This document shows positions 9,041 to 50,595 of a DNA stretch of 64,000 bases, piece after piece. Numbering within the stretch: position 1 is the first letter of the stretch; each line of letters starts with the position of its first letter. The position numbers and the translations under genes are program-made. This DNA comes from Mytilus edulis (lineage: Eukaryota), in the NCBI RefSeq assembly GCF_963676685.1, contig NC_092349.1, positions 79,980,001 to 80,044,000 on the forward strand, in the 5' to 3' direction. The notes under the pieces are model-generated. The model searched no databases. It saw only the letters and a list, made by a program, of their open reading frames with translations, and was not told the origin of the DNA.

Positions 9041-12000
9041 TTACAATGACTGTTCTTTTTGGGACTGCAAAGGAATTATCACATCTGGTTCTTTGTTCAG
9101 TGGTATATCGTTAGGAGTTCTACCAGCATATCCAAGGTGGAATTCGGTGATGGATTTGATGTAGCCTTTTTGTTTGATTATCATGGATATCATTATTACA
9201 GAAACCAAAACTAAAATCATGATGACAGCAATAACCAGTGTGATAAGCCAATGATCGTTTAGGAAGTTGCTGTCTCTGGGTGGAACTGAAAATAAAAAGG
9301 ACAATATCACCAATGTTTTTCATTATTCTACATTTCTAACCATGCGTTTAATTATATATCTAAAGTAATATTTCTGTGGAGGGTTTAAATATGTGCAAGT
9401 TATTGATTTTGTTGAATTGTCACTACACTTAATTATGTACTGCTAAAATACTGTACAACCAATATGGTTACAATTGCGCAATTATTTGTTTACATTTCAC
9501 CGGGAAGTTTTTGAACCCAAGATGGTAGTAAGGAAAAAAATCTATGAGGCTTCTGATTGGATGGTATGCCTTCCATTTATTGATTTTATGAAAGATAAAC
9601 CATTTTTGTGCAAAAATAGTAACAATTTGGAATGATTGATTTAGTATTCTCTGTGGAAATATTTTTTTTGTGGTAATAGGTTGACTGAAAATTTTGCTAT
9701 GTCATTTAGTGCGGATTTTGGAAGCGTCCATAACAACAGCTATTTAAGGCAATTTCCGCCGCATAAGCATGTTGTTTTTTTTTACTGAAATAAATTCTTA
9801 GTATGTCTCCTTTCAGATTCTGGCTTTGGTTTCTCTGCAATTTATGTACTTTTTTTTTTATTAGGATTCAAAGAGACAGGGTACCCTATGTAAAATGCAT
9901 TGTAAATAATTGCGCAATTGTAACCTATAGAATTTCTCTACTTTCACTTTCGATATTGGATTTTCAGAAAATCTGACTCTGAATCAAACATTCAATTGAT
10001 TTTGATTGAATTTTAATCAATATGGATGACTTTTGGAGAGAACTACAACACAAATTCAACAAAAAAACCCAGGGAAGTGTCAATGGAAAGGGGTGTATTG
10101 AGTGGTCGGGCACAAAAAAGGGAAAATCTGGTTATGGCATACAGGTTGTGAAATGGCCACAGGGGGAGAAAAAAAGGGAGGCTGCACATAGAGTGGCATA
10201 TATGATTAGGCATAAATTGACCAGATATGATATGCCAAGGGTGGATGAAAACAATAATACAATAGAGTGTAGCCATATTTGTCACAATGCATCATGTGTA
10301 AATGTAAACCACCTTGTTTTAGAACCTCATGCTATTAACTTGGACCGACTGCACTGTAAAAACCAGGGACTATGTTCAAAGAGTCACAAACCATATTGTT
10401 TAATTTAAAAGTACTAAATTTATTTATTTTCGAATAGAAATCTTCTTCTGCTTCTTGTTCTTAACATACGGGTGGTCTTCATGTTTTGATTTTGATGATT
10501 TTATGCCGCGGTCAGCTTTCATTAGCATATTCTTCTCATATTGGATTATTTCGCTGAGTTTTTCATATAATTTGTATAACTTGCACCTTTTTTCACCTCG
10601 AAATACTTTATAATTTACACTTTGTTTGTGTTTTTTCTGCAAAATGTCAGTTTTTTGAATATTTTTCAGAGCCTTGTATGCACTACTGCCTACTGGAATA
10701 TCACAGTGTAGAGCACTACAGAGTTCTAATATAGACTCCCCTGGACCATTATTAACGCTGTGAGCTGCTGCATGTGCACGACCAGACATGTTTTTCTTGA
10801 AAGTAACATTTGAAGGTAATGATCTTCTTAAACACCTATTAAATCCCTCAACAAAATTGGTGTTCATGTTTAACCGTGTCTTTTCAAGCACTTTGGAACC
10901 AAGTCGCTTATTTATTTGTTTCCGAAGCGAGTCTAAATTCTCATTGCAGCTACTTATATTAAAAGAATTTGGTAAGAAAGGACGGCCTTTTAACCACGAT
11001 CCCTGAAATCCTTTACAGGCAAAGGAGTTTTTTCTGCACCTGGCATGATCTCCCATGTAGCAGTAAGCTATGGCATCCACAGTGTGAGAAATTTTATTTT
11101 TTACTTTGCAAAAGTCTCCAGCATAAAATTTATAGGCCAGTAATAGTTCTCTGTTACATCTCTCAGTCAGATCAACAGAGAAATTATTCAAAAGTTTTTG
11201 TCTTTTTAGTTTTGTTGTAGCTGGCATCACTTTTAAAAGAGTTTTATCTGACTTTGCTCCTTTACGTACATGGTCGGAAAGATGTCTAGTGTCTAAAAAG
11301 TTTTCTGGCTCAACAGTATTTATACCCTCATTGTGAAGGTCCATGGCAGCTTTATAGGCAGAACTGTCTGCATCAGTAACTAAATGCTCAATTTCAAGTT
11401 GGTCTTCCTTTAAATCAAGGAGGCATTCCCTGGCCCAGGTATACTCATCTCCTATACTTTTTACCATGGGTATATTTGCACTGCAATCATCTGTGCAATC
11501 TTCATGAAGTCGGCCTGAGTCATTGTCTACGTCAAGACTAGAATGTTTGGAACAGAGCTTGTTTTTGATATTTAATGCTAATATATTGTGTTTTGATGTT
11601 TCATTTTCAGCTGCCGTATAAATTGTTTGTGTTGCCGGTTGAAATGGAGTGCGGCCTACACCAGAATACAGTGGATTATTGTACATTCCATCCATTTGAA
11701 CACTTATAGCATGTGGATTTTCCTTGCCTCTTAACTTATTTATTTCTACAATATCATTTCTTCTTCTTTTCATATCCTGTTTATTAATTTGTTCAATTTG
11801 TTTCATGACTGTATTTGCTCTTCTTTGTAGGCTAGATGTTGTTGGAGCCAAGATGTTACCACTTAAGAAGATTTTTTGTATACCAGAATAAGCAATGGGT
11901 GATTGACTCAGGCCGACATGAATTGCAGTGTCAAGTTTTGATGCTTTTCTCCCAGGTTTCCCACTTTCCAATTCTTCATACAGGGTGTACCGCTTTGATT

Positions 12001-15000
12001 TGTAATCACACTTTGTGCATATTAGCTGTTGTCGCGTTCCAAAGCCTCTTTTCTCTTCATTTCCTAAATCGCATAGCAGAATACCTTCACACTGTGGATT
12101 TCTCAATTGATGTTCTTTAAATGCTGCATTCCACATTTCCTCCATCTTGTATATACATATTGCTCTGTTTGAATTGTAATCCGGTCTAAAAAATATCAAA
12201 AAAAATAAAAATTAGACTTAGCAAAGTACATATGCCTATTTACTAATTTTGAAAATAGAGTTACCTGCCCCTTAGTTGACAGATATTTTTCTCTGTGATT
12301 TTAGATGGTACATAGACTTTTAAATCTTGCAATATGTATGAAGATGCTTCTTTTTATTAATATATTTGTTGTTTAATTCATAAAAATAACAGTTTATATG
12401 ATTATACTGTTCTTTTTTAATTAAGAAAGGTGCATAGTGGCTCAAAATGGGCAATTTTTTGTACTTTTTACTCTATTATTTCCAAATTATTGTCTTTTTT
12501 GGTAAAAATATTTCACTTAAACTGTTTATGAGTAAATATTATTCAATTGTTAGCTTACCTTTTGTCCTTTTTAGCATTTTTCCTAATTGGTTTGGTAAGA
12601 AGCACCTCATCACTCATTGGACGGAGTAATCTTGCAGCACGGCACACCCTTTTGGATTTCTCCTGTGGATTAGCATACGGATCATTCACTACTAAATTGT
12701 GTTTTTCTTTGGTAAGTCTAATGTACTTAGATGTGTAAGAGTCACTTTTATTTTGTTTCACAGTCTTTCTTTTCTTGTTATAAGGAACATTTCCACCTTT
12801 GAATTTGTGTGTATTTCCCTTTTGGAATACCATATTTAGTAAAACAACAGAATTTTCACTTATATTCTACACTGTCTTTTTTTTTTATATGCTGATTTTG
12901 AATAATGTTCTTATAATTTCTTTTTGCAATATAAGTTGAAATCAAATGCTCACTAATTTATAGAAGAAATTGAAAAGAAACAGATGACCCCTTAAATTTT
13001 TACAGAATTTCTAAATAGACAACAAGATAATGTTTTGATATTTTTATAGTTTCTGTGAGGACAGCCAGATTTAATGCATATCATCTTTATTTCTCTTATC
13101 ATTGGTAATAAAATGATAGAGGTTAATGATTCAAAGTGCCTCTTCAGTACACTTTTTTTTGGACAAAAGTTTTGAAAATATATGAAAAAAGACTGTTTTT
13201 CACTATTTTCAATAAATCTTGGGTATATTCCACCCTGAATAAAATTTGAAATCAACTTATACATACGCAAAGAAACATTGCTTATATGTACATGAAAAAA
13301 CAACATTTGTATTTTTTTGTAGAATTTTAATGCTTGAATTTTTCATTTAAACTTCTGTTTCAGTTGGTATTGCTGACTAAATCTTCTACTGGCCGCAAAC
13401 ATGGGATGAAGTATAGAAATGTCCATTTCTCAAAGAAGACTTCACAGATCACTTCCTAATTTGGTGTGTGTGATAGACATAGATAGTTGTATATGCAGGC
13501 AAAAATAAAGTCTCATTTGAAAACTTTTTATTCTTTCTATAGAATTTCTCTACTTTCACTTTCGATATTGGATTTTCAGAAAATCTGACTCTGAATCAAA
13601 CATTCAATTGATTTTGATTGAATTTTAATCAATATGGATGACTTTTGGAGAGAACTACAACACAAATTCAACAAAAAAACCCAGGGAAGTGTCAATGGAA
13701 AGGGGTGTATTGAGTGGTCGGGCACAAAAAAGGGAAAATCTGGTTATGGCATACAGGTTGTGAAATGGCCACAGGGGGAGAAAAAAAGGGAGGCTGCACA
13801 TAGAGTGGCATATATGATTAGGCATAAATTGACCAGATATGATATGCCAAGGGTGGATGAAAACAATAATACAATAGAGTGTAGCCATATTTGTCACAAT
13901 GCATCATGTGTAAATGTAAACCACCTTGTTTTAGAACCTCATGCTATTAACTTGGACCGACTGCACTGTAAAAACCAGGGACTATGTTCAAAGAGTCACA
14001 AACCATATTGTTTAATTTAAAAGTACTAAATTTATTTATTTTCGAATAGAAATCTTCTTCTGCTTCTTGTTCTTAACATACGGGTGGTCTTCATGTTTTG
14101 ATTTTGATGATTTTATGCCGCGGTCAGCTTTCATTAGCATATTCTTCTCATATTGGATTATTTCGCTGAGTTTTTCATATAATTTGTATAACTTGCACCT
14201 TTTTTCACCTCGAAATACTTTATAATTTACACTTTGTTTGTGTTTTTTCTGCAAAATGTCAGTTTTTTGAATATTTTTCAGAGCCTTGTATGCACTACTG
14301 CCTACTGGAATATCACAGTGTAGAGCACTACAGAGTTCTAATATAGACTCCCCTGGACCATTATTAACGCTGTGAGCTGCTGCATGTGCACGACCAGACA
14401 TGTTTTTCTTGAAAGTAACATTTGAAGGTAATGATCTTCTTAAACACCTATTAAATCCCTCAACAAAATTGGTGTTCATGTTTAACCGTGTCTTTTCAAG
14501 CACTTTGGAACCAAGTCGCTTATTTATTTGTTTCCGAAGCGAGTCTAAATTCTCATTGCAGCTACTTATATTAAAAGAATTTGGTAAGAAAGGACGGCCT
14601 TTTAACCACGATCCCTGAAATCCTTTACAGGCAAAGGAGTTTTTTCTGCACCTGGCATGATCTCCCATGTAGCAGTAAGCTATGGCATCCACAGTGTGAG
14701 AAATTTTATTTTTTACTTTGCAAAAGTCTCCAGCATAAAATTTATAGGCCAGTAATAGTTCTCTGTTACATCTCTCAGTCAGATCAACAGAGAAATTATT
14801 CAAAAGTTTTTGTCTTTTTAGTTTTGTTGTAGCTGGCATCACTTTTAAAAGAGTTTTATCTGACTTTGCTCCTTTACGTACATGGTCGGAAAGATGTCTA
14901 GTGTCTAAAAAGTTTTCTGGCTCAACAGTATTTATACCCTCATTGTGAAGGTCCATGGCAGCTTTATAGGCAGAACTGTCTGCATCAGTAACTAAATGCT

Positions 15001-18000
15001 CAATTTCAAGTTGGTCTTCCTTTAAATCAAGGAGGCATTCCCTGGCCCAGGTATACTCATCTCCTATACTTTTTACCATGGGTATATTTGCACTGCAATC
15101 ATCTGTGCAATCTTCATGAAGTCGGCCTGAGTCATTGTCTACGTCAAGACTAGAATGTTTGGAACAGAGCTTGTTTTTGATATTTAATGCTAATATATTG
15201 TGTTTTGATGTTTCATTTTCAGCTGCCGTATAAATTGTTTGTGTTGCCGGTTGAAATGGAGTGCGGCCTACACCAGAATACAGTGGATTATTGTACATTC
15301 CATCCATTTGAACACTTATAGCATGTGGATTTTCCTTGCCTCTTAACTTATTTATTTCTACAATATCATTTCTTCTTCTTTTCATATCCTGTTTATTAAT
15401 TTGTTCAATTTGTTTCATGACTGTATTTGCTCTTCTTTGTAGGCTAGATGTTGTTGGAGCCAAGATGTTACCACTTAAGAAGATTTTTTGTATACCAGAA
15501 TAAGCAATGGGTGATTGACTCAGGCCGACATGAATTGCAGTGTCAAGTTTTGATGCTTTTCTCCCAGGTTTCCCACTTTCCAATTCTTCATACAGGGTGT
15601 ACCGCTTTGATTTGTAATCACACTTTGTGCATATTAGCTGTTGTCGCGTTCCAAAGCCTCTTTTCTCTTCATTTCCTAAATCGCATAGCAGAATACCTTC
15701 ACACTGTGGATTTCTCAATTGATGTTCTTTAAATGCTGCATTCCACATTTCCTCCATCTTGTATATACATATTGCTCTGTTTGAATTGTAATCCGGTCTA
15801 AAAAATATCAAAAAAAATAAAAATTAGACTTAGCAAAGTACATATGCCTATTTACTAATTTTGAAAATAGAGTTACCTGCCCCTTAGTTGACAGATATTT
15901 TTCTCTGTGATTTTAGATGGTACATAGACTTTTAAATCTTGCAATATGTATGAAGATGCTTCTTTTTATTAATATATTTGTTGTTTAATTCATAAAAATA
16001 ACAGTTTATATGATTATACTGTTCTTTTTTAATTAAGAAAGGTGCATAGTGGCTCAAAATGGGCAATTTTTTGTACTTTTTACTCTATTATTTCCAAATT
16101 ATTGTCTTTTTTGGTAAAAATATTTCACTTAAACTGTTTATGAGTAAATATTATTCAATTGTTAGCTTACCTTTTGTCCTTTTTAGCATTTTTCCTAATT
16201 GGTTTGGTAAGAAGCACCTCATCACTCATTGGACGGAGTAATCTTGCAGCACGGCACACCCTTTTGGATTTCTCCTGTGGATTAGCATACGGATCATTCA
16301 CTACTAAATTGTGTTTTTCTTTGGTAAGTCTAATGTACTTAGATGTGTAAGAGTCACTTTTATTTTGTTTCACAGTCTTTCTTTTCTTGTTATAAGGAAC
16401 ATTTCCACCTTTGAATTTGTGTGTATTTCCCTTTTGGAATACCATATTTAGTAAAACAACAGAATTTTCACTTATATTCTACACTGTCTTTTTTTTTTAT
16501 ATGCTGATTTTGAATAATGTTCTTATAATTTCTTTTTGCAATATAAGTTGAAATCAAATGCTCACTAATTTATAGAAGAAATTGAAAAGAAACAGATGAC
16601 CCCTTAAATTTTTACAGAATTTCTAAATAGACAACAAGATAATGTTTTGATATTTTTATAGTTTCTGTGAGGACAGCCAGATTTAATGCATATCATCTTT
16701 ATTTCTCTTATCATTGGTAATAAAATGATAGAGGTTAATGATTCAAAGTGCCTCTTCAGTACACTTTTTTTTGGACAAAAGTTTTGAAAATATATGAAAA
16801 AAGACTGTTTTTCACTATTTTCAATAAATCTTGGGTATATTCCACCCTGAATAAAATTTGAAATCAACTTATACATACGCAAAGAAACATTGCTTATATG
16901 TACATGAAAAAACAACATTTGTATTTTTTTGTAGAATTTTAATGCTTGAATTTTTCATTTAAACTTCTGTTTCAGTTGGTATTGCTGACTAAATCTTCTA
17001 CTGGCCGCAAACATGGGATGAAGTATAGAAATGTCCATTTCTCAAAGAAGACTTCACAGATCACTTCCTAATTTGGTGTGTGTGATAGACATAGATAGTT
17101 GTATATGCAGGCAAAAATAAAGTCTCATTTGAAAACTTTTTATTCTTTCTATAGAATTTCTCTACTTTCACTTTCGATATTGGATTTTCAGAAAATCTGA
17201 CTCTGAATCAAACATTCAATTGATTTTGATTGAATTTTAATCAATATGGATGACTTTTGGAGAGAACTACAACACAAATTCAACAAAAAAACCCAGGGAA
17301 GTGTCAATGGAAAGGGGTGTATTGAGTGGTCGGGCACAAAAAAGGGAAAATCTGGTTATGGCATACAGGTTGTGAAATGGCCACAGGGGGAGAAAAAAAG
17401 GGAGGCTGCACATAGAGTGGCATATATGATTAGGCATAAATTGACCAGATATGATATGCCAAGGGTGGATGAAAACAATAATACAATAGAGTGTAGCCAT
17501 ATTTGTCACAATGCATCATGTGTAAATGTAAACCACCTTGTTTTAGAACCTCATGCTATTAACTTGGACCGACTGCACTGTAAAAACCAGGGACTATGTT
17601 CAAAGAGTCACAAACCATATTGTTTAATTTAAAAGTACTAAATTTATTTATTTTCGAATAGAAATCTTCTTCTGCTTCTTGTTCTTAACATACGGGTGGT
17701 CTTCATGTTTTGATTTTGATGATTTTATGCCGCGGTCAGCTTTCATTAGCATATTCTTCTCATATTGGATTATTTCGCTGAGTTTTTCATATAATTTGTA
17801 TAACTTGCACCTTTTTTCACCTCGAAATACTTTATAATTTACACTTTGTTTGTGTTTTTTCTGCAAAATGTCAGTTTTTTGAATATTTTTCAGAGCCTTG
17901 TATGCACTACTGCCTACTGGAATATCACAGTGTAGAGCACTACAGAGTTCTAATATAGACTCCCCTGGACCATTATTAACGCTGTGAGCTGCTGCATGTG

Positions 18001-21000
18001 CACGACCAGACATGTTTTTCTTGAAAGTAACATTTGAAGGTAATGATCTTCTTAAACACCTATTAAATCCCTCAACAAAATTGGTGTTCATGTTTAACCG
18101 TGTCTTTTCAAGCACTTTGGAACCAAGTCGCTTATTTATTTGTTTCCGAAGCGAGTCTAAATTCTCATTGCAGCTACTTATATTAAAAGAATTTGGTAAG
18201 AAAGGACGGCCTTTTAACCACGATCCCTGAAATCCTTTACAGGCAAAGGAGTTTTTTCTGCACCTGGCATGATCTCCCATGTAGCAGTAAGCTATGGCAT
18301 CCACAGTGTGAGAAATTTTATTTTTTACTTTGCAAAAGTCTCCAGCATAAAATTTATAGGCCAGTAATAGTTCTCTGTTACATCTCTCAGTCAGATCAAC
18401 AGAGAAATTATTCAAAAGTTTTTGTCTTTTTAGTTTTGTTGTAGCTGGCATCACTTTTAAAAGAGTTTTATCTGACTTTGCTCCTTTACGTACATGGTCG
18501 GAAAGATGTCTAGTGTCTAAAAAGTTTTCTGGCTCAACAGTATTTATACCCTCATTGTGAAGGTCCATGGCAGCTTTATAGGCAGAACTGTCTGCATCAG
18601 TAACTAAATGCTCAATTTCAAGTTGGTCTTCCTTTAAATCAAGGAGGCATTCCCTGGCCCAGGTATACTCATCTCCTATACTTTTTACCATGGGTATATT
18701 TGCACTGCAATCATCTGTGCAATCTTCATGAAGTCGGCCTGAGTCATTGTCTACGTCAAGACTAGAATGTTTGGAACAGAGCTTGTTTTTGATATTTAAT
18801 GCTAATATATTGTGTTTTGATGTTTCATTTTCAGCTGCCGTATAAATTGTTTGTGTTGCCGGTTGAAATGGAGTGCGGCCTACACCAGAATACAGTGGAT
18901 TATTGTACATTCCATCCATTTGAACACTTATAGCATGTGGATTTTCCTTGCCTCTTAACTTATTTATTTCTACAATATCATTTCTTCTTCTTTTCATATC
19001 CTGTTTATTAATTTGTTCAATTTGTTTCATGACTGTATTTGCTCTTCTTTGTAGGCTAGATGTTGTTGGAGCCAAGATGTTACCACTTAAGAAGATTTTT
19101 TGTATACCAGAATAAGCAATGGGTGATTGACTCAGGCCGACATGAATTGCAGTGTCAAGTTTTGATGCTTTTCTCCCAGGTTTCCCACTTTCCAATTCTT
19201 CATACAGGGTGTACCGCTTTGATTTGTAATCACACTTTGTGCATATTAGCTGTTGTCGCGTTCCAAAGCCTCTTTTCTCTTCATTTCCTAAATCGCATAG
19301 CAGAATACCTTCACACTGTGGATTTCTCAATTGATGTTCTTTAAATGCTGCATTCCACATTTCCTCCATCTTGTATATACATATTGCTCTGTTTGAATTG
19401 TAATCCGGTCTAAAAAATATCAAAAAAAATAAAAATTAGACTTAGCAAAGTACATATGCCTATTTACTAATTTTGAAAATAGAGTTACCTGCCCCTTAGT
19501 TGACAGATATTTTTCTCTGTGATTTTAGATGGTACATAGACTTTTAAATCTTGCAATATGTATGAAGATGCTTCTTTTTATTAATATATTTGTTGTTTAA
19601 TTCATAAAAATAACAGTTTATATGATTATACTGTTCTTTTTTAATTAAGAAAGGTGCATAGTGGCTCAAAATGGGCAATTTTTTGTACTTTTTACTCTAT
19701 TATTTCCAAATTATTGTCTTTTTTGGTAAAAATATTTCACTTAAACTGTTTATGAGTAAATATTATTCAATTGTTAGCTTACCTTTTGTCCTTTTTAGCA
19801 TTTTTCCTAATTGGTTTGGTAAGAAGCACCTCATCACTCATTGGACGGAGTAATCTTGCAGCACGGCACACCCTTTTGGATTTCTCCTGTGGATTAGCAT
19901 ACGGATCATTCACTACTAAATTGTGTTTTTCTTTGGTAAGTCTAATGTACTTAGATGTGTAAGAGTCACTTTTATTTTGTTTCACAGTCTTTCTTTTCTT
20001 GTTATAAGGAACATTTCCACCTTTGAATTTGTGTGTATTTCCCTTTTGGAATACCATATTTAGTAAAACAACAGAATTTTCACTTATATTCTACACTGTC
20101 TTTTTTTTTTATATGCTGATTTTGAATAATGTTCTTATAATTTCTTTTTGCAATATAAGTTGAAATCAAATGCTCACTAATTTATAGAAGAAATTGAAAA
20201 GAAACAGATGACCCCTTAAATTTTTACAGAATTTCTAAATAGACAACAAGATAATGTTTTGATATTTTTATAGTTTCTGTGAGGACAGCCAGATTTAATG
20301 CATATCATCTTTATTTCTCTTATCATTGGTAATAAAATGATAGAGGTTAATGATTCAAAGTGCCTCTTCAGTACACTTTTTTTTGGACAAAAGTTTTGAA
20401 AATATATGAAAAAAGACTGTTTTTCACTATTTTCAATAAATCTTGGGTATATTCCACCCTGAATAAAATTTGAAATCAACTTATACATACGCAAAGAAAC
20501 ATTGCTTATATGTACATGAAAAAACAACATTTGTATTTTTTTGTAGAATTTTAATGCTTGAATTTTTCATTTAAACTTCTGTTTCAGTTGGTATTGCTGA
20601 CTAAATCTTCTACTGGCCGCAAACATGGGATGAAGTATAGAAATGTCCATTTCTCAAAGAAGACTTCACAGATCACTTCCTAATTTGGTGTGTGTGATAG
20701 ACATAGATAGTTGTATATGCAGGCAAAAATAAAGTCTCATTTGAAAACTTTTTATTCTTTCTATAGAATTTCTCTACTTTCACTTTCGATATTGGATTTT
20801 CAGAAAATCTGACTCTGAATCAAACATTCAATTGATTTTGATTGAATTTTAATCAATATGGATGACTTTTGGAGAGAACTACAACACAAATTCAACAAAA
20901 AAACCCAGGGAAGTGTCAATGGAAAGGGGTGTATTGAGTGGTCGGGCACAAAAAAGGGAAAATCTGGTTATGGCATACAGGTTGTGAAATGGCCACAGGG

Positions 21001-24000
21001 GGAGAAAAAAAGGGAGGCTGCACATAGAGTGGCATATATGATTAGGCATAAATTGACCAGATATGATATGCCAAGGGTGGATGAAAACAATAATACAATA
21101 GAGTGTAGCCATATTTGTCACAATGCATCATGTGTAAATGTAAACCACCTTGTTTTAGAACCTCATGCTATTAACTTGGACCGACTGCACTGTAAAAACC
21201 AGGGACTATGTTCAAAGAGTCACAAACCATATTGTTTAATTTAAAAGTACTAAATTTATTTATTTTCGAATAGAAATCTTCTTCTGCTTCTTGTTCTTAA
21301 CATACGGGTGGTCTTCATGTTTTGATTTTGATGATTTTATGCCGCGGTCAGCTTTCATTAGCATATTCTTCTCATATTGGATTATTTCGCTGAGTTTTTC
21401 ATATAATTTGTATAACTTGCACCTTTTTTCACCTCGAAATACTTTATAATTTACACTTTGTTTGTGTTTTTTCTGCAAAATGTCAGTTTTTTGAATATTT
21501 TTCAGAGCCTTGTATGCACTACTGCCTACTGGAATATCACAGTGTAGAGCACTACAGAGTTCTAATATAGACTCCCCTGGACCATTATTAACGCTGTGAG
21601 CTGCTGCATGTGCACGACCAGACATGTTTTTCTTGAAAGTAACATTTGAAGGTAATGATCTTCTTAAACACCTATTAAATCCCTCAACAAAATTGGTGTT
21701 CATGTTTAACCGTGTCTTTTCAAGCACTTTGGAACCAAGTCGCTTATTTATTTGTTTCCGAAGCGAGTCTAAATTCTCATTGCAGCTACTTATATTAAAA
21801 GAATTTGGTAAGAAAGGACGGCCTTTTAACCACGATCCCTGAAATCCTTTACAGGCAAAGGAGTTTTTTCTGCACCTGGCATGATCTCCCATGTAGCAGT
21901 AAGCTATGGCATCCACAGTGTGAGAAATTTTATTTTTTACTTTGCAAAAGTCTCCAGCATAAAATTTATAGGCCAGTAATAGTTCTCTGTTACATCTCTC
22001 AGTCAGATCAACAGAGAAATTATTCAAAAGTTTTTGTCTTTTTAGTTTTGTTGTAGCTGGCATCACTTTTAAAAGAGTTTTATCTGACTTTGCTCCTTTA
22101 CGTACATGGTCGGAAAGATGTCTAGTGTCTAAAAAGTTTTCTGGCTCAACAGTATTTATACCCTCATTGTGAAGGTCCATGGCAGCTTTATAGGCAGAAC
22201 TGTCTGCATCAGTAACTAAATGCTCAATTTCAAGTTGGTCTTCCTTTAAATCAAGGAGGCATTCCCTGGCCCAGGTATACTCATCTCCTATACTTTTTAC
22301 CATGGGTATATTTGCACTGCAATCATCTGTGCAATCTTCATGAAGTCGGCCTGAGTCATTGTCTACGTCAAGACTAGAATGTTTGGAACAGAGCTTGTTT
22401 TTGATATTTAATGCTAATATATTGTGTTTTGATGTTTCATTTTCAGCTGCCGTATAAATTGTTTGTGTTGCCGGTTGAAATGGAGTGCGGCCTACACCAG
22501 AATACAGTGGATTATTGTACATTCCATCCATTTGAACACTTATAGCATGTGGATTTTCCTTGCCTCTTAACTTATTTATTTCTACAATATCATTTCTTCT
22601 TCTTTTCATATCCTGTTTATTAATTTGTTCAATTTGTTTCATGACTGTATTTGCTCTTCTTTGTAGGCTAGATGTTGTTGGAGCCAAGATGTTACCACTT
22701 AAGAAGATTTTTTGTATACCAGAATAAGCAATGGGTGATTGACTCAGGCCGACATGAATTGCAGTGTCAAGTTTTGATGCTTTTCTCCCAGGTTTCCCAC
22801 TTTCCAATTCTTCATACAGGGTGTACCGCTTTGATTTGTAATCACACTTTGTGCATATTAGCTGTTGTCGCGTTCCAAAGCCTCTTTTCTCTTCATTTCC
22901 TAAATCGCATAGCAGAATACCTTCACACTGTGGATTTCTCAATTGATGTTCTTTAAATGCTGCATTCCACATTTCCTCCATCTTGTATATACATATTGCT
23001 CTGTTTGAATTGTAATCCGGTCTAAAAAATATCAAAAAAAATAAAAATTAGACTTAGCAAAGTACATATGCCTATTTACTAATTTTGAAAATAGAGTTAC
23101 CTGCCCCTTAGTTGACAGATATTTTTCTCTGTGATTTTAGATGGTACATAGACTTTTAAATCTTGCAATATGTATGAAGATGCTTCTTTTTATTAATATA
23201 TTTGTTGTTTAATTCATAAAAATAACAGTTTATATGATTATACTGTTCTTTTTTAATTAAGAAAGGTGCATAGTGGCTCAAAATGGGCAATTTTTTGTAC
23301 TTTTTACTCTATTATTTCCAAATTATTGTCTTTTTTGGTAAAAATATTTCACTTAAACTGTTTATGAGTAAATATTATTCAATTGTTAGCTTACCTTTTG
23401 TCCTTTTTAGCATTTTTCCTAATTGGTTTGGTAAGAAGCACCTCATCACTCATTGGACGGAGTAATCTTGCAGCACGGCACACCCTTTTGGATTTCTCCT
23501 GTGGATTAGCATACGGATCATTCACTACTAAATTGTGTTTTTCTTTGGTAAGTCTAATGTACTTAGATGTGTAAGAGTCACTTTTATTTTGTTTCACAGT
23601 CTTTCTTTTCTTGTTATAAGGAACATTTCCACCTTTGAATTTGTGTGTATTTCCCTTTTGGAATACCATATTTAGTAAAACAACAGAATTTTCACTTATA
23701 TTCTACACTGTCTTTTTTTTTTATATGCTGATTTTGAATAATGTTCTTATAATTTCTTTTTGCAATATAAGTTGAAATCAAATGCTCACTAATTTATAGA
23801 AGAAATTGAAAAGAAACAGATGACCCCTTAAATTTTTACAGAATTTCTAAATAGACAACAAGATAATGTTTTGATATTTTTATAGTTTCTGTGAGGACAG
23901 CCAGATTTAATGCATATCATCTTTATTTCTCTTATCATTGGTAATAAAATGATAGAGGTTAATGATTCAAAGTGCCTCTTCAGTACACTTTTTTTTTGGA

Positions 24001-27000
24001 CAAAAGTTTTGAAAATATATGAAAAAAGACTGTTTTTCACTATTTTCAATAAATCTTGGGTATATTCCACCCTGAATAAAATTTGAAATCAACTTATACA
24101 TACGCAAAGAAACATTGCTTATATGTACATGAAAAAACAACATTTGTATTTTTTTGTAGAATTTTAATGCTTGAATTTTTCATTTAAACTTCTGTTTCAG
24201 TTGGTATTGCTGACTAAATCTTCTACTGGCCGCAAACATTGGGATGAAGTATAGAAATGTCCATTTCTCAAAGAAGACTTCACAGATCACTTCCTAATTT
24301 GGTGTGTGTGATAGACATAGATAGTTGTATATGCAGGCAAAAATAAAGTCTCATTTGAAAACTTTTTATTCTTTCTATAGAATTTCTCTACTTNNNNNNN
24401 NNNNNNNNNNNNNNNNNNNNNNNNNNNNNNNNNNNNNNNNNNNNNNNNNNNNNNNNNNNNNNNNNNNNNNNNNNNNNNNNNNNNNNNNNNNNNAGGCCAG
24501 TAATAGTTCTCTGTTACATCTCTCAGTCAGATCAACAGAGAAATTATTCAAAAGTTTTTGTCTTTTTAGTTTTGTTGTAGCTGGCATCACTTTTAAAAGA
24601 GTTTTATCTGACTTTGCTCCTTTACGTACATGGTCGGAAAGATGTCTAGTGTCTAAAAAGTTTTCTGGCTCAACAGTATTTATACCCTCATTGTGAAGGT
24701 CCATGGCAGCTTTATAGGCAGAACTGTCTGCATCAGTAACTAAATGCTCAATTTCAAGTTGGTCTTCCTTTAAATCAAGGAGGCATTCCCTGGCCCAGGT
24801 ATACTCATCTCCTATACTTTTTACCATGGGTATATTTGCACTGCAATCATCTGTGCAATCTTCATGAAGTCGGCCTGAGTCATTGTCTACGTCAAGACTA
24901 GAATGTTTGGAACAGAGCTTGTTTTTGATATTTAATGCTAATATATTGTGTTTTGATGTTTCATTTTCAGCTGCCGTATAAATTGTTTGTGTTGCCGGTT
25001 GAAATGGAGTGCGGCCTACACCAGAATACAGTGGATTATTGTACATTCCATCCATTTGAACACTTATAGCATGTGGATTTTCCTTGCCTCTTAACTTATT
25101 TATTTCTACAATATCATTTCTTCTTCTTTTCATATCCTGTTTATTAATTTGTTCAATTTGTTTCATGACTGTATTTGCTCTTCTTTGTAGGCTAGATGTT
25201 GTTGGAGCCAAGATGTTACCACTTAAGAAGATTTTTTGTATACCAGAATAAGCAATGGGTGATTGACTCAGGCCGACATGAATTGCAGTGTCAAGTTTTG
25301 ATGCTTTTCTCCCAGGTTTCCCACTTTCCAATTCTTCATACAGGGTGTACCGCTTTGATTTGTAATCACACTTTGTGCATATTAGCTGTTGTCGCGTTCC
25401 AAAGCCTCTTTTCTCTTCATTTCCTAAATCGCATAGCAGAATACCTTCACACTGTGGATTTCTCAATTGATGTTCTTTTAAATGCTGCATTCCACATTTC
25501 CTCCATCTTGTATATACATATTGCTCTGTTTGAATTGTAATCCGGTCTAAAAAATATCAAAAAAAATAAAAATTAGACTTAGCAAAGTACATATGCCTAT
25601 TTACTAATTTTGAAAATAGAGTTACCTGCCCCTTAGTTGACAGATATTTTTCTCTGTGATTTTAGATGGTACATAGACTTTTAAATCTTGCAATATGTAT
25701 GAAGATGCTTCTTTTTATTAATATATTTGTTGTTTAATTCATAAAAATAACAGTTTATATGATTATACTGTTCTTTTTTAATTAAGAAAGGTGCATAGTG
25801 GCTCAAAATGGGCAATTTTTTGTACTTTTTACTCTATTATTTCCAAATTATTGTCTTTTTTGGTAAAAATATTTCACTTAAACTGTTTATGAGTAAATAT
25901 TATTCAATTGTTAGCTTACCTTTTGTCCTTTTTAGCATTTTTCCTAATTGGTTTGGTAAGAAGCACCTCATCACTCATTGGACGGAGTAATCTTGCAGCA
26001 CGGCACACCCTTTTGGATTTCTCCTGTGGATTAGCATACGGATCATTCACTACTAAATTGTGTTTTTCTTTGGTAAGTCTAATGTACTTAGATGTGTAAG
26101 AGTCACTTTTATTTTGTTTCACAGTCTTTCTTTTCTTGTTATAAGGAACATTTCCACCTTTGAATTTGTGTGTATTTCCCTTTTGGAATACCATATTTAG
26201 TAAAACAACAGAATTTTCACTTATATTCTACACTGTCTTTTTTTTTTATATGCTGATTTTGAATAATGTTCTTATAATTTCTTTTTGCAATATAAGTTGA
26301 AATCAAATGCTCACTAATTTATAGAAGAAATTGAAAAGAAACAGATGACCCCTTAAATTTTTACAGAATTTCTAAATAGACAACAAGATAATGTTTTGAT
26401 ATTTTTATAGTTTCTGTGAGGACAGCCAGATTTAATGCATATCATCTTTATTTCTCTTATCATTGGTAATAAAATGATAGAGGTTAATGATTCAAAGTGC
26501 CTCTTCAGTACACTTTTTTTTGGACAAAAGTTTTGAAAATATATGAAAAAAGACTGTTTTTCACTATTTTCAATAAATCTTGGGTATATTCCACCCTGAA
26601 TAAAATTTGAAATCAACTTATACATACGCAAAGAAACATTGCTTATATGTACATGAAAAAACAACATTTGTATTTTTTTGTAGAATTTTAATGCTTGAAT
26701 TTTTCATTTAAACTTCTGTTTCAGTTGGTATTGCTGACTAAATCTTCTACTGGCCGCAAACATGGGATGAAGTATAGAAATGTCCATTTCTCAAAGAAGA
26801 CTTCACAGATCACTTCCTAATTTGGTGTGTGTGATAGACATAGATAGTTGTATATGCAGGCAAAAATAAAGTCTCATTTGAAAACTTTTTATTCTTTCTA
26901 TAGAATTTCTCTACTTTCACTTTCGATATTGGATTTTCAGAAAATCTGACTCTGAATCAAACATTCAATTGATTTTGATTGAATTTTAATCAATATGGAT

Positions 27001-30000
27001 GACTTTTGGAGAGAACTACAACACAAATTCAACAAAAAAACCCAGGGAAGTGTCAATGGAAAGGGGTGTATTGAGTGGTCGGGCACAAAAAAGGGAAAAT
27101 CTGGTTATGGCATACAGGTTGTGAAATGGCCACAGGGGGAGAAAAAAAGGGAGGCTGCACATAGAGTGGCATATATGATTAGGCATAAATTGACCAGATA
27201 TGATATGCCAAGGGTGGATGAAAACAATAATACAATAGAGTGTAGCCATATTTGTCACAATGCATCATGTGTAAATGTAAACCACCTTGTTTTAGAACCT
27301 CATGCTATTAACTTGGACCGACTGCACTGTAAAAACCAGGGACTATGTTCAAAGAGTCACAAACCATATTGTTTAATTTAAAAGTACTAAATTTATTTAT
27401 TTTCGAATAGAAATCTTCTTCTGCTTCTTGTTCTTAACATACGGGTGGTCTTCATGTTTTGATTTTGATGATTTTATGCCGCGGTCAGCTTTCATTAGCA
27501 TATTCTTCTCATATTGGATTATTTCGCTGAGTTTTTCATATAATTTGTATAACTTGCACCTTTTTTCACCTCGAAATACTTTATAATTTACACTTTGTTT
27601 GTGTTTTTTCTGCAAAATGTCAGTTTTTTGAATATTTTTCAGAGCCTTGTATGCACTACTGCCTACTGGAATATCACAGTGTAGAGCACTACAGAGTTCT
27701 AATATAGACTCCCCTGGACCATTATTAACGCTGTGAGCTGCTGCATGTGCACGACCAGACATGTTTTTCTTGAAAGTAACATTTGAAGGTAATGATCTTC
27801 TTAAACACCTATTAAATCCCTCAACAAAATTGGTGTTCATGTTTAACCGTGTCTTTTCAAGCACTTTGGAACCAAGTCGCTTATTTATTTGTTTCCGAAG
27901 CGAGTCTAAATTCTCATTGCAGCTACTTATATTAAAAGAATTTGGTAAGAAAGGACGGCCTTTTAACCACGATCCCTGAAATCCTTTACAGGCAAAGGAG
28001 TTTTTTCTGCACCTGGCATGATCTCCCATGTAGCAGTAAGCTATGGCATCCACAGTGTGAGAAATTTTATTTTTTACTTTGCAAAAGTCTCCAGCATAAA
28101 ATTTATAGGCCAGTAATAGTTCTCTGTTACATCTCTCAGTCAGATCAACAGAGAAATTATTCAAAAGTTTTTGTCTTTTTAGTTTTGTTGTAGCTGGCAT
28201 CACTTTTAAAAGAGTTTTATCTGACTTTGCTCCTTTACGTACATGGTCGGAAAGATGTCTAGTGTCTAAAAAGTTTTCTGGCTCAACAGTATTTATACCC
28301 TCATTGTGAAGGTCCATGGCAGCTTTATAGGCAGAACTGTCTGCATCAGTAACTAAATGCTCAATTTCAAGTTGGTCTTCCTTTAAATCAAGGAGGCATT
28401 CCCTGGCCCAGGTATACTCATCTCCTATACTTTTTACCATGGGTATATTTGCACTGCAATCATCTGTGCAATCTTCATGAAGTCGGCCTGAGTCATTGTC
28501 TACGTCAAGACTAGAATGTTTGGAACAGAGCTTGTTTTTGATATTTAATGCTAATATATTGTGTTTTGATGTTTCATTTTCAGCTGCCGTATAAATTGTT
28601 TGTGTTGCCGGTTGAAATGGAGTGCGGCCTACACCAGAATACAGTGGATTATTGTACATTCCATCCATTTGAACACTTATAGCATGTGGATTTTCCTTGC
28701 CTCTTAACTTATTTATTTCTACAATATCATTTCTTCTTCTTTTCATATCCTGTTTATTAATTTGTTCAATTTGTTTCATGACTGTATTTGCTCTTCTTTG
28801 TAGGCTAGATGTTGTTGGAGCCAAGATGTTACCACTTAAGAAGATTTTTTGTATACCAGAATAAGCAATGGGTGATTGACTCAGGCCGACATGAATTGCA
28901 GTGTCAAGTTTTGATGCTTTTCTCCCAGGTTTCCCACTTTCCAATTCTTCATACAGGGTGTACCGCTTTGATTTGTAATCACACTTTGTGCATATTAGCT
29001 GTTGTCGCGTTCCAAAGCCTCTTTTCTCTTCATTTCCTAAATCGCATAGCAGAATACCTTCACACTGTGGATTTCTCAATTGATGTTCTTTAAATGCTGC
29101 ATTCCACATTTCCTCCATCTTGTATATACATATTGCTCTGTTTGAATTGTAATCCGGTCTAAAAAATATCAAAAAAAATAAAAATTAGACTTAGCAAAGT
29201 ACATATGCCTATTTACTAATTTTGAAAATAGAGTTACCTGCCCCTTAGTTGACAGATATTTTTCTCTGTGATTTTAGATGGTACATAGACTTTTAAATCT
29301 TGCAATATGTATGAAGATGCTTCTTTTTATTAATATATTTGTTGTTTAATTCATAAAAATAACAGTTTATATGATTATACTGTTCTTTTTTAATTAAGAA
29401 AGGTGCATAGTGGCTCAAAATGGGCAATTTTTTGTACTTTTTACTCTATTATTTCCAAATTATTGTCTTTTTTGGTAAAAATATTTCACTTAAACTGTTT
29501 ATGAGTAAATATTATTCAATTGTTAGCTTACCTTTTGTCCTTTTTAGCATTTTTCCTAATTGGTTTGGTAAGAAGCACCTCATCACTCATTGGACGGAGT
29601 AATCTTGCAGCACGGCACACCCTTTTGGATTTCTCCTGTGGATTAGCATACGGATCATTCACTACTAAATTGTGTTTTTCTTTGGTAAGTCTAATGTACT
29701 TAGATGTGTAAGAGTCACTTTTATTTTGTTTCACAGTCTTTCTTTTCTTGTTATAAGGAACATTTCCACCTTTGAATTTGTGTGTATTTCCCTTTTGGAA
29801 TACCATATTTAGTAAAACAACAGAATTTTCACTTATATTCTACACTGTCTTTTTTTTTTATATGCTGATTTTGAATAATGTTCTTATAATTTCTTTTTGC
29901 AATATAAGTTGAAATCAAATGCTCACTAATTTATAGAAGAAATTGAAAAGAAACAGATGACCCCTTAAATTTTTACAGAATTTCTAAATAGACAACAAGA

Positions 30001-33000
30001 TAATGTTTTGATATTTTTATAGTTTCTGTGAGGACAGCCAGATTTAATGCATATCATCTTTATTTCTCTTATCATTGGTAATAAAATGATAGAGGTTAAT
30101 GATTCAAAGTGCCTCTTCAGTACACTTTTTTTTGGACAAAAGTTTTGAAAATATATGAAAAAAGACTGTTTTTCACTATTTTCAATAAATCTTGGGTATA
30201 TTCCACCCTGAATAAAATTTGAAATCAACTTATACATACGCAAAGAAACATTGCTTATATGTACATGAAAAAACAACATTTGTATTTTTTTGTAGAATTT
30301 TAATGCTTGAATTTTTCATTTAAACTTCTGTTTCAGTTGGTATTGCTGACTAAATCTTCTACTGGCCGCAAACATGGGATGAAGTATAGAAATGTCCATT
30401 TCTCAAAGAAGACTTCACAGATCACTTCCTAATTTGGTGTGTGTGATAGACATAGATAGTTGTATATGCAGGCAAAAATAAAGTCTCATTTGAAAACTTT
30501 TTATTCTTTCTATAGAATTTCTCTACTTTCACTTTCGATATTGGATTTTCAGAAAATCTGACTCTGAATCAAACATTCAATTGATTTTGATTGAATTTTA
30601 ATCAATATGGATGACTTTTGGAGAGAACTACAACACAAATTCAACAAAAAAACCCAGGGAAGTGTCAATGGAAAGGGGTGTATTGAGTGGTCGGGCACAA
30701 AAAAGGGAAAATCTGGTTATGGCATACAGGTTGTGAAATGGCCACAGGGGGAGAAAAAAAGGGAGGCTGCACATAGAGTGGCATATATGATTAGGCATAA
30801 ATTGACCAGATATGATATGCCAAGGGTGGATGAAAACAATAATACAATAGAGTGTAGCCATATTTGTCACAATGCATCATGTGTAAATGTAAACCACCTT
30901 GTTTTAGAACCTCATGCTATTAACTTGGACCGACTGCACTGTAAAAACCAGGGACTATGTTCAAAGAGTCACAAACCATATTGTTTAATTTAAAAGTACT
31001 AAATTTATTTATTTTCGAATAGAAATCTTCTTCTGCTTCTTGTTCTTAACATACGGGTGGTCTTCATGTTTTGATTTTGATGATTTTATGCCGCGGTCAG
31101 CTTTCATTAGCATATTCTTCTCATATTGGATTATTTCGCTGAGTTTTTCATATAATTTGTATAACTTGCACCTTTTTTCACCTCGAAATACTTTATAATT
31201 TACACTTTGTTTGTGTTTTTTCTGCAAAATGTCAGTTTTTTGAATATTTTTCAGAGCCTTGTATGCACTACTGCCTACTGGAATATCACAGTGTAGAGCA
31301 CTACAGAGTTCTAATATAGACTCCCCTGGACCATTATTAACGCTGTGAGCTGCTGCATGTGCACGACCAGACATGTTTTTCTTGAAAGTAACATTTGAAG
31401 GTAATGATCTTCTTAAACACCTATTAAATCCCTCAACAAAATTGGTGTTCATGTTTAACCGTGTCTTTTCAAGCACTTTGGAACCAAGTCGCTTATTTAT
31501 TTGTTTCCGAAGCGAGTCTAAATTCTCATTGCAGCTACTTATATTAAAAGAATTTGGTAAGAAAGGACGGCCTTTTAACCACGATCCCTGAAATCCTTTA
31601 CAGGCAAAGGAGTTTTTTCTGCACCTGGCATGATCTCCCATGTAGCAGTAAGCTATGGCATCCACAGTGTGAGAAATTTTATTTTTTACTTTGCAAAAGT
31701 CTCCAGCATAAAATTTATAGGCCAGTAATAGTTCTCTGTTACATCTCTCAGTCAGATCAACAGAGAAATTATTCAAAAGTTTTTGTCTTTTTAGTTTTGT
31801 TGTAGCTGGCATCACTTTTAAAAGAGTTTTATCTGACTTTGCTCCTTTACGTACATGGTCGGAAAGATGTCTAGTGTCTAAAAAGTTTTCTGGCTCAACA
31901 GTATTTATACCCTCATTGTGAAGGTCCATGGCAGCTTTATAGGCAGAACTGTCTGCATCAGTAACTAAATGCTCAATTTCAAGTTGGTCTTCCTTTAAAT
32001 CAAGGAGGCATTCCCTGGCCCAGGTATACTCATCTCCTATACTTTTTACCATGGGTATATTTGCACTGCAATCATCTGTGCAATCTTCATGAAGTCGGCC
32101 TGAGTCATTGTCTACGTCAAGACTAGAATGTTTGGAACAGAGCTTGTTTTTGATATTTAATGCTAATATATTGTGTTTTGATGTTTCATTTTCAGCTGCC
32201 GTATAAATTGTTTGTGTTGCCGGTTGAAATGGAGTGCGGCCTACACCAGAATACAGTGGATTATTGTACATTCCATCCATTTGAACACTTATAGCATGTG
32301 GATTTTCCTTGCCTCTTAACTTATTTATTTCTACAATATCATTTCTTCTTCTTTTCATATCCTGTTTATTAATTTGTTCAATTTGTTTCATGACTGTATT
32401 TGCTCTTCTTTGTAGGCTAGATGTTGTTGGAGCCAAGATGTTACCACTTAAGAAGATTTTTTGTATACCAGAATAAGCAATGGGTGATTGACTCAGGCCG
32501 ACATGAATTGCAGTGTCAAGTTTTGATGCTTTTCTCCCAGGTTTCCCACTTTCCAATTCTTCATACAGGGTGTACCGCTTTGATTTGTAATCACACTTTG
32601 TGCATATTAGCTGTTGTCGCGTTCCAAAGCCTCTTTTCTCTTCATTTCCTAAATCGCATAGCAGAATACCTTCACACTGTGGATTTCTCAATTGATGTTC
32701 TTTAAATGCTGCATTCCACATTTCCTCCATCTTGTATATACATATTGCTCTGTTTGAATTGTAATCCGGTCTAAAAAATATCAAAAAAAATAAAAATTAG
32801 ACTTAGCAAAGTACATATGCCTATTTACTAATTTTGAAAATAGAGTTACCTGCCCCTTAGTTGACAGATATTTTTCTCTGTGATTTTAGATGGTACATAG
32901 ACTTTTAAATCTTGCAATATGTATGAAGATGCTTCTTTTTATTAATATATTTGTTGTTTAATTCATAAAAATAACAGTTTATATGATTATACTGTTCTTT

Positions 33001-49945: not shown

Positions 49946-50595
49946 CTGTAATCAAAATAATAATTAAATAAAAGAGAGACATATATTAAGAATCTCGATT
50001 TCACAGATCAATTAATATATACAGTGTATGACACATAGTTTCAATTGAATTGTTCAAAATGATAACATTACAGACACAGCATATGGCCCTATATAAAGAT
50101 TTCGATATATTCAGTTATCCCGAGCTTCACGAGTGAAGGTTTTGTTCAAAGATAGACTTTCAGCAATTTTCCTTTTTAAATTTGATAACGGTTTTTGCTT
50201 TTCTTATAATAATAAATTACTAGCTATGAATAGTTATCTTGAAATGTATCTTAATAAAAAGATAGGCTAATATATTAACTTTCCCGTAAGAGTAAATATG
50301 CAGCTCAGAACTGATTGTTTCTTATAGCCTTGATTTTGAAGAGTTTTTCATTTGCACTAAGAAAACGGTATGAAGAACACAATGGTGTGAAAGTTGTTTA
50401 AAGGTTTCATATTAGATTGGCAGAGCAAACTGTTAAGTTTTTTAAGAATTACTTCAAAACGTATTCAAATTATTGGTAATACTGTTAACTTCTTCAAAAC
50501 ATATGTTTACGTGTTATGGTCGCTTAAATTGCCTTGTCAAAATATATATAAATAAGAATGAAAGGAGAAAAAAAATTCTTCTTAAAACTACGTTC

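What the first reader, a model, noticed from the sequence alone, without database searches (positions are those of the whole stretch)
9462..9929. Two nested 4-bp duplications (outer ATAT, inner TATA) imply the LTDR is itself a precisely excisable unit
Seen: ATAT|LTDR|TATA on the left, TATA|LTDR|ATAT on the right, and a single TATA at every INT-INT junction. The empty junction CTTTC-TATA-GAATTT is exactly the product of footprint-free excision of an LTDR from TATA-LTDR-TATA. Equivalently, the locus has the structure of a cointegrate between a chromosomal solo LTDR (ATAT TSD) and an INT circle carrying an LTDR at TATA. Kolobok elements are classically associated with TTAA TSDs, so this family seems to use a relaxed AT-only 4-mer.
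Basis: partly seen in the sequence, partly recalled or inferred. Interest (0 to 1): 0.75.

Follow-up and report, generated by a model that had tools for sequence, protein, structure and literature searches.

The report
Known KolobokP transposon array, end-repeat lost
This is a tandem array of an already catalogued mollusc jumping gene (KolobokP-3_MyGa) whose internal units abut at a single TATA, likely because one 460-base end-repeat was cut out and the unit was then copied in tandem; this kind of junction was described in 2022, so it is a clean example rather than a discovery.

Summary
The element is KolobokP-3_MyGa (Kojima & Bao 2022, PMC9587614). That paper already reports INTs that begin and end with TATA, single-TATA junctions, solo LTDRs with TSDs, LTDR excision and the circle-plus-solo-LTDR model. 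The scan also met this junction type before, in another genome (e1-9272589). Corrections: (1) the target is not AT-only: 16 of 37 four-base TSDs are AT-only, and this family's one solo LTDR has TAGT. (2) The inner TATA pair is an inherited INT terminus, not a duplication made here; a family with unequal ends (TATA/TAAA) also loses the LTDR plus exactly 4 bp. (3) The nine junctions are identical and likely copy one event; contig depth hints at about 6 INTs in one run and about 2 in another. The empty allele could not be read. Small additions: the family's previously unknown LTDR, TIR and TSD, and a lead that the inner junction resembles the I-PpoI site (10 of 15).

The parts
9462..9465 (.). Left copy of the 4-bp target-site duplication ATAT
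   Evidence: same junction in runs X1 and X14
9466..9925 (.). Left LTDR, 460 bp, GG...CC, perfect 22-bp TIRs (9466-9487, 9904-9925)
9926..9932 (.). INT end TATAGAA, inverted repeat of the other INT end TTCTATA; begins with the inner TATA
9926..44962 (.). Head-to-tail array of INT units, period 3612 bp (INT 3616 bp less one TATA), no internal LTDR; 7 of the 9 complete units are identical to one another
10022..10408 (+). His-Me finger (His-Cys box, I-PpoI-like) nuclease ORF, 128 aa, repeated in every unit
   Evidence: Pfam PF05551 E 7e-14; I-PpoI weak match E 0.02 with S97, H98, H110, E114, N119 aligned
10424..12185 (-). Transposase exon 2 (DDE core, DxxH, two Cys/His clusters), open to the stop
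   Evidence: Pfam PF20700 E 5.5e-45; matches KolobokP-3_MyGa_1p
12559..12833 (-). Predicted transposase exon 1; the only splice model tested that gives a long frame (678 aa)
   Evidence: predicted from GT/AG sites, not checked on RNA
13538..13541 (.). First INT-INT junction: single TATA at the centre of the 10-bp palindrome TTCTATAGAA; same at 17150, 20762, 24376, 26899, 30511, 34123, 37735, 41347
   Evidence: in run X14
24394..24493 (.). Assembly gap of 100 N inside the array; unit number uncertain
44959..44962 (.). Inner TATA at the last INT end
44963..45422 (.). Right LTDR, identical to the left one
45423..45426 (.). Right copy of the target-site duplication ATAT
   Evidence: run X14

Best explanation
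The locus is one insertion of the known DNA transposon KolobokP-3_MyGa, in the form LTDR-(INT)n-LTDR with an ATAT target-site duplication, and its single-TATA junctions likely come from one loss of an internal LTDR plus 4 bp followed by tandem copying. Shown: the structure, the family identity, solo LTDRs with varied 4-bp TSDs, and loss of LTDR plus exactly 4 bp at INT-INT junctions in three families of this genome. Inferred steps: (1) the element inserted at ATAT; (2) it became a dimer sharing a middle LTDR; (3) the element's transposase cut the middle LTDR out at its TIRs; (4) repair joined the two INT ends with loss of one flanking 4-mer, which looks seamless because both INT ends are TATA; (5) unequal exchange between the 3.6-kb INT repeats, or slippage, multiplied the junction-bearing unit. 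The inner TATA is an inherited, conserved INT terminus. It may be a very old TTAA/TATA target duplication from the origin of KolobokP, but it was not made at this locus.
For: Family: the paper's KolobokP-3_MyGa-I begins with the reverse complement of the window's INT end, and its transposase differs at 2 of 441 residues, compared by eye. Mobile LTDR: 37 of 61 resolved insertions have an exact 4-bp TSD and 3 a 5-bp TSD; L004 is a solo LTDR of this family with TAGT. Fixed 4-bp loss: a non-autonomous sister family has INT-INT junctions with one TATA (C451 twice, C398 once; spacings 847x3-8 and 847x2-4); a third family on C5 with TATA|LTDR|TAAA has junctions with TAAA, period 4030 falling to 3576 (450+4). 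One event, then copying: 7 of 9 complete units are identical; the others differ by two T insertions in T-runs or one substitution. Contig depth in X14 (flank about 6-8, LTDR about 12, INT about 12-14) fits n of about 2; in X1 (flank 87, LTDR 339, INT 460-620) it fits n of about 5-7. Mixed arrays with and without internal LTDRs exist on C5, C451 and C398. PMC9587614 reaches the same model.
Against: No experiment shows that a KolobokP transposase cuts. Among the papers listed by two searches I saw no Kolobok excision assay (titles and abstract starts only). The same junction would result from an INT circle, from microhomology deletion at TATA, or from a staggered nuclease cut, and the sequence cannot tell these apart. 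No internal LTDR survives in this array, so the dimer precursor is not seen at this locus. The tool states that contig depth is no copy number, X14's depth is low, and X1 may be the source sample. The empty allele was not read. 14 of 61 resolved insertions have no TSD (4 of these abut an INT fragment), 7 have one mismatch, and 21 of 82 loci were unresolved. All but two of the surveyed loci belong to sister families, not to this one.
Confidence: 0.62

Rival explanations
1. INT-circle route. Cuts at the two inner LTDR ends of a monomer release the INT, which closes at TATA into a circle. The circle recombines into a chromosomal INT or is copied by rolling-circle replication, giving LTDR-(INT)n-LTDR with no LTDR ever lost from a dimer.
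For: It gives the same junction and explains why 0 of 9 junctions keep an LTDR. Two lines of the paper's Fig. S3 show an LTDR end followed by TATA (or TTATA) and an LTDR start, the reciprocal product (read by eye). Runs X3 and X12 hold circularly permuted LTDR-INT contigs, which tandem copies explain equally well.
Against: No LTDR-spacer-LTDR junction of this or the sister family in this assembly (0 matches). Mixed arrays on C5, C451 and C398 show LTDR-sharing multimers as the usual background.
Confidence: 0.12
2. Transposase-independent deletion. The TIRs, extended by the 7-bp inverted INT ends to a 29-bp stem, bring the two TATAs together, and slippage or microhomology joining deletes the LTDR, as recalled for precise excision of bacterial Tn10 and IS256.
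For: Perfect 22-bp TIR plus TTCTATA/TATAGAA; 10-bp palindromic junctions in this family and in the C451 family.
Against: The C5 family has a poor TIR (8 of 13 matches, by eye) and unequal 4-mers, yet loses the LTDR plus exactly 4 bp. The paper counts 46 one-sided LTDR losses from monomers in one family, where no TATA pair exists.
Confidence: 0.12
3. The element's His-Me finger nuclease cuts at the INT|LTDR junctions as I-PpoI does, leaving 4-nt 3' TATA overhangs on both INT ends that ligate into one TATA; the new junction lacks the GG half-site and is not recut.
For: I-PpoI leaves four-base 3' TTAA overhangs (PMC9587614). Its site as printed in PMC2034484 matches the window's INT|LTDR junction at 10 of 15, equal to the best of about 8,160 other positions in the unit. 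By eye it matches KolobokP-7_MeMe at 13, 7_GiAe at 12 and 5_MeMe at 11 of 15. Catalytic residues are intact.
Against: Six of the 15 letters (TTAA|GG) are simply the Kolobok TSD plus terminus. The other inner junction matches only 8 of 15. Most families scored by eye reach 4-10 of 15. Of six INT ends tested, two beat nearly all host flanks (2 of 74 as good) and four do not. The DNA-contact residues lie outside the aligned stretch. It does not explain LTDR loss next to host DNA.
Confidence: 0.1
4. The LTDR-less array is an assembly artefact.
For: A 100-N gap lies inside the array and the units are nearly identical; depth in X1 suggests fewer units than assembled.
Against: The junction is in X14's own contigs. 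X1's contig across 9925 starts with 24 non-LTDR letters, inferred to be the INT end. The same junction type occurs in other families here and in print. Only the unit number is doubtful.
Confidence: 0.03

Closest known systems
KolobokP-3_MyGa (Kolobok superfamily, KolobokP lineage; Kojima & Bao 2022, PMC9587614, Table S1 and Data S1/S3)
   Same: INT end matches over the first ~60 bases compared by eye; transposase 439 of 441 residues identical by eye.
   Different: The paper lists the family as incomplete (length >4379; LTDR, TSD and TIR '?'), and its protein diverges after the catalytic E. This locus gives LTDR 460 bp, TIR 22 bp, TSD 4 bp, monomer 4536 bp and an open predicted 678-aa transposase.
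KolobokP-1_MeMe, -4_MyCo and -7_MeMe LTDR-(INT)n-LTDR multimers (PMC9587614, Table 2, Figs S2-S3)
   Same: INT begins and ends with TATA (TTAA in 7_MeMe); one copy at INT-INT junctions; TSD at the extreme ends; up to LTDR-(INT)4-LTDR.
   Different: This array is longer (6 or more INTs) and fully autonomous, with no internal LTDR.
piggyBac seamless excision at TTAA (PMC7351741, search listing and abstract start only)
   Same: A 4-bp flank is left once after excision; cohesive ends would explain seamless joins where the flanks match.
   Different: A different superfamily with a strict TTAA target; TTAA is 1 of 37 TSDs here. The cleavage chemistry of Kolobok was not tested.
Bacterial composite transposons and IS26 translocatable units (as discussed in PMC9587614)
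   Same: Direct terminal modules that can move alone; circle-plus-solo-module cointegration.
   Different: The transposase is encoded in the INT, not in the terminal module; eukaryotic, with an intron.

Membership tests
KolobokP | Two LTDRs of about 450 or 660 bp in direct orientation | tested here: met
   460 bp, identical
KolobokP | Each LTDR has its own short TIR with 5'-RR...YY-3' ends | tested here: met
   GG...CC, 22 bp perfect; slightly longer than the up to 20 bp in the Table S1 rows seen
KolobokP | INT encodes a DDD/E transposase with C/DxxH and two zinc-finger clusters | tested here: met
   PF20700 E 5.5e-45; motifs located; near-identity to KolobokP-3_MyGa_1p
KolobokP | Downstream His-Me finger nuclease on the opposite strand, I-PpoI-like | tested here: met
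   PF05551 E 7e-14; I-PpoI alignment; genes converge at 10408/10424
KolobokP | 3-5-bp TSD of variable sequence | tested here: met
   ATAT here, TAGT at L004; 37 four-bp and 3 five-bp TSDs among 61 resolved loci
KolobokP | Solo LTDRs and multimers, including INT-INT junctions with a 3-4-bp loss | tested here: met
KolobokP | Placement in the KolobokP clade by a transposase tree | not tested
   No tree built; membership rests on near-identity to a family in the paper's tree
Classical Kolobok (Kol0) | TTAA-specific TSD | tested here: not met
   1 of 37
Precisely excising element (piggyBac-like) | Transposase restores the empty site without footprint | not testable with these tools
   Needs an excision assay; junctions here are seamless where the 4-mers match, while the paper finds 1-5 bp lost elsewhere
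   16 of 37; AT-rich bias only (83% against 68% background, p 0.002 for the AT-only excess)

The most novel reading that the evidence does not exclude
The conserved TATA/TTAA at the inner LTDR ends is the centre of the homing site of the element's own I-PpoI-like nuclease. The enzyme was captured because a Kolobok TTAA|GG junction mimics its rDNA site. It cuts both INT|LTDR junctions with 4-nt 3' overhangs, pops the LTDR out seamlessly and leaves a palindromic, cut-resistant INT-INT junction. This would give the orphan nuclease a defined target and make it, not the transposase, the maker of these arrays.
Probability: 0.1. Interest if true: 0.6.

Novelty: already known. Interest (0 to 1): 0.15.

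Why it matters
As it stands it matters little: family, architecture, junction and model are all in print. It completes one catalogued family (LTDR, TIR, TSD, open transposase frame). It also offers a very young, apparently intact copy, with identical LTDRs and an array whose length seems to vary between samples, as a good substrate for a KolobokP excision assay; a 2026 review says the proposed role of the nuclease still awaits experiment (PMC13565253, passage). If the nuclease lead held, it would answer what the His-Me finger protein of KolobokP cuts.

Tried and rejected
Empty allele: the left flank is single-copy in the assembly (1 match), and the first 70 bases of the right flank have no paralogue among 40 scored matches, so no empty site could be read there. 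In run X3 a flank contig leaves the window at 9464 with 53 further letters that the cut table did not show, and X3 has no depth on 45423-45466: inconclusive. LTDR-spacer-LTDR junctions: a loose pattern was noise (185 matches against 796 for the control); the two candidates fetched were not such junctions of this family; a tight pattern gave 0. Other copies of this family's INT-INT junction: a 16-base INT-end pattern gave 15 matches, 10 in this array, 1 at L003 and 4 not examined (control 10). Searches of the paper's supplements for this LTDR's TIR and two others found nothing, which fits the family's LTDR being unknown to the authors. Run X10 (53% read) showed only the C5 solo LTDR and no INT: no proof of absence. 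The C3 array has no matching outer 4-mers, unexplained. A wider target consensus beyond a pyrimidine at -1 (55 of 74, p 3e-5) was not found. No protein homologue search, fold or complex job was run, because the family match settled identity.

Full report
Observation. The window holds one element from 9466 to 45422: two identical 460-bp LTDRs with perfect 22-bp TIRs around a head-to-tail array of 3612-bp units, split by a 100-N gap. ATAT lies outside both LTDRs, TATA inside both, and each of 9 INT-INT junctions has one TATA. A chance match of two flanking 4-mers has probability about 0.006.

Identity. Each unit encodes a His-Me finger nuclease (PF05551, E 7e-14) and, converging on it, a DDE transposase (PF20700, E 5.5e-45). 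One two-exon model gives an open 678-aa frame (predicted). This is the architecture of KolobokP (PMC9587614). I read parts 1-4 of 6 of its main text, parts 1, 3, 4 and 5 of 7 of supplement 2 plus passages of part 2, parts 80-81 of 106 of supplement 3 plus passages, and rows of Table S1. The family itself is catalogued as KolobokP-3_MyGa: its INT starts with the reverse complement of the window's INT end, and its transposase differs at 2 of 441 residues by eye. The paper had no LTDR, TIR or TSD for it.

What is already in print. [quoted passage not shown] It lists LTDR-(INT)n-LTDR insertions, explains them by excision of an LTDR or monomer from a multimer, reports solo LTDRs with TSDs, and proposes a circle of one LTDR plus one INT that joins a solo LTDR. 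It also reports that LTDR loss from monomers removes 1-5 flanking bases on one side.

Test of the target. The LTDR search found two more near-identical copies: a solo LTDR with TAGT on both sides (L004) and an LTDR attached to a truncated INT (L003). A TIR pattern has 208 matches genome-wide, 100 of them listed, nearly all from sister families. I examined 85 loci and dropped 3 duplicates. Of 82, 21 were unresolved and 61 resolved (56 single LTDRs, 5 monomers): 37 exact 4-bp TSDs, 3 five-bp, 7 with one mismatch, 14 without, of which 4 abut INT fragments. Of the 37, 16 are AT-only, 9 are palindromic and 1 is TTAA; AT content is 83% against 68% background, with a pyrimidine preferred just outside (55 of 74).

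Is the inner TATA a second duplication? It is present at the INT ends wherever this family was seen: window, L003, runs X3 and X12, and the published consensus. It is thus inherited, not made here. TATA is its own reverse complement, and the INT ends form a 7-bp inverted repeat, so the junction is a 10-bp palindrome, as it is in the C451 sister family. By eye, 9 of the 19 families in the paper's Figs S2-S4 have identical inner 4-mers, all TATA or TTAA; 10 have unequal ones, and in KolobokP-5_MyCo and -2_MyCo the inverted rather than the direct symmetry is kept. An ancient TTAA-type duplication at the origin of the lineage is not excluded, but these ends look conserved (inference).

Other junctions in this genome. 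A non-autonomous sister family has single-TATA junctions on C451 (two, adjacent) and C398 (one), which may be the same locus. A third family on C5 has TATA before and TAAA after its 450-bp LTDR, and its two adjacent INT-INT junctions keep TAAA. All five junctions, from perhaps two or three events, lose the LTDR plus exactly 4 bp. The rule is 'LTDR plus one flanking 4-mer', and it only looks footprint-free when the 4-mers match.

One event, then copying. Seven of 9 complete units are identical; the rest differ by T insertions in T-runs near the gap or by one substitution. The right contig alone needs at least 6 units. In run X1 (flank identical to the window, possibly the source sample) contig depth is 87 on the flank, 339 on the LTDR and 460-620 on the INT, fitting 4 LTDRs and 5-7 INTs, not 10. 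Run X14, from another coded study, has both outer junctions and the INT-INT junction, with depths that fit about two INTs. The tool warns that contig depth is no copy number, so this is a hint. X3 and X12 hold LTDR-INT with TATA on both sides, and no INT-INT junction was listed for them. The empty allele could not be read.

Mechanism. Most likely (0.62): transposase cut a shared LTDR out of a dimer, repair dropped one 4-mer, and unequal exchange expanded the unit. All of these steps are inferred. Rivals are an INT circle (0.12; no reciprocal LTDR-LTDR junction here), transposase-independent deletion (0.12), nuclease cutting (0.10) and artefact (0.03).

Novel lead. The I-PpoI site as printed in PMC2034484 (passages) matches the window's INT|LTDR junction at 10 of 15 and, by eye, three published families at 11-13 of 15. 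I-PpoI's staggered cut would fall exactly at the LTDR boundary. Against it: six of the letters are the generic Kolobok TTAA|GG, the other inner junction scores 8, and most families score 4-10. The paper proposes cuts inside the LTDR or at abutted TIRs on circles. I did not see the INT|LTDR junction named as the site in the parts read or in the 2026 review passages; searches found 2 and 5 papers; unread supplement parts and subscription papers could hold it.

Verdict. The feature is real and already known; interest 0.15.

Noticed in passing
window 9472-9483 and the other three TIRs: Each TIR contains a perfect 12-bp palindrome, AATTGCGCAATT, which is broken in the sister family's TIR; a candidate site for a dimeric protein.
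   Followed up: no
window 9041-9319 (-) and 49509-49985 (-): The array lies between an Ig-like exon and a transmembrane/cytoplasmic-tail exon on the minus strand, so it likely sits in an intron of an Ig-domain membrane protein gene; more Ig-like exons at 568-5155 (judged by eye, no family scan).
   Followed up: no
window 44066: The only substitution among the units (C to A, last unit) matches the allele of run X3 at the equivalent place 12645, so the last unit may keep the older base while the others share a newer one.
   Followed up: partly
window 9300-13700 against public runs: 90% or more of the stretch's sampled words are held by runs under five organism labels and a marine metagenome, and 89% under a sixth label: a very young family shared by close relatives or moved between them.
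   Followed up: no
G000:C5:27615375-27634500 (L033-L035) and G000:C3:52841600-52858200 (L037-L039): Two arrays of another autonomous KolobokP family with open nuclease and transposase frames; the C5 array mixes junctions with and without an LTDR; the C3 array has no matching outer 4-mers.
   Followed up: partly
L048 (C451), L049 (C398): Unplaced contigs made of (LTDR-INT)n arrays of a 1306-bp non-autonomous KolobokP unit; these copies have palindromic INT ends, whereas dispersed monomers of the family mostly do not.
   Followed up: partly
L007:1372 and L010, L053, L058, L092, L096, L113: Sister-family LTDRs whose right flank begins with TATA (or TAGC then TATA) without a TSD; possibly leftovers of INT ends or excision footprints.
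   Followed up: partly
L046 (C10:10775785-10778797) and L045 (C5:48922888-48927208): Solo LTDRs carried, with their TSD, inside host tandem or segmental duplications.
   Followed up: no
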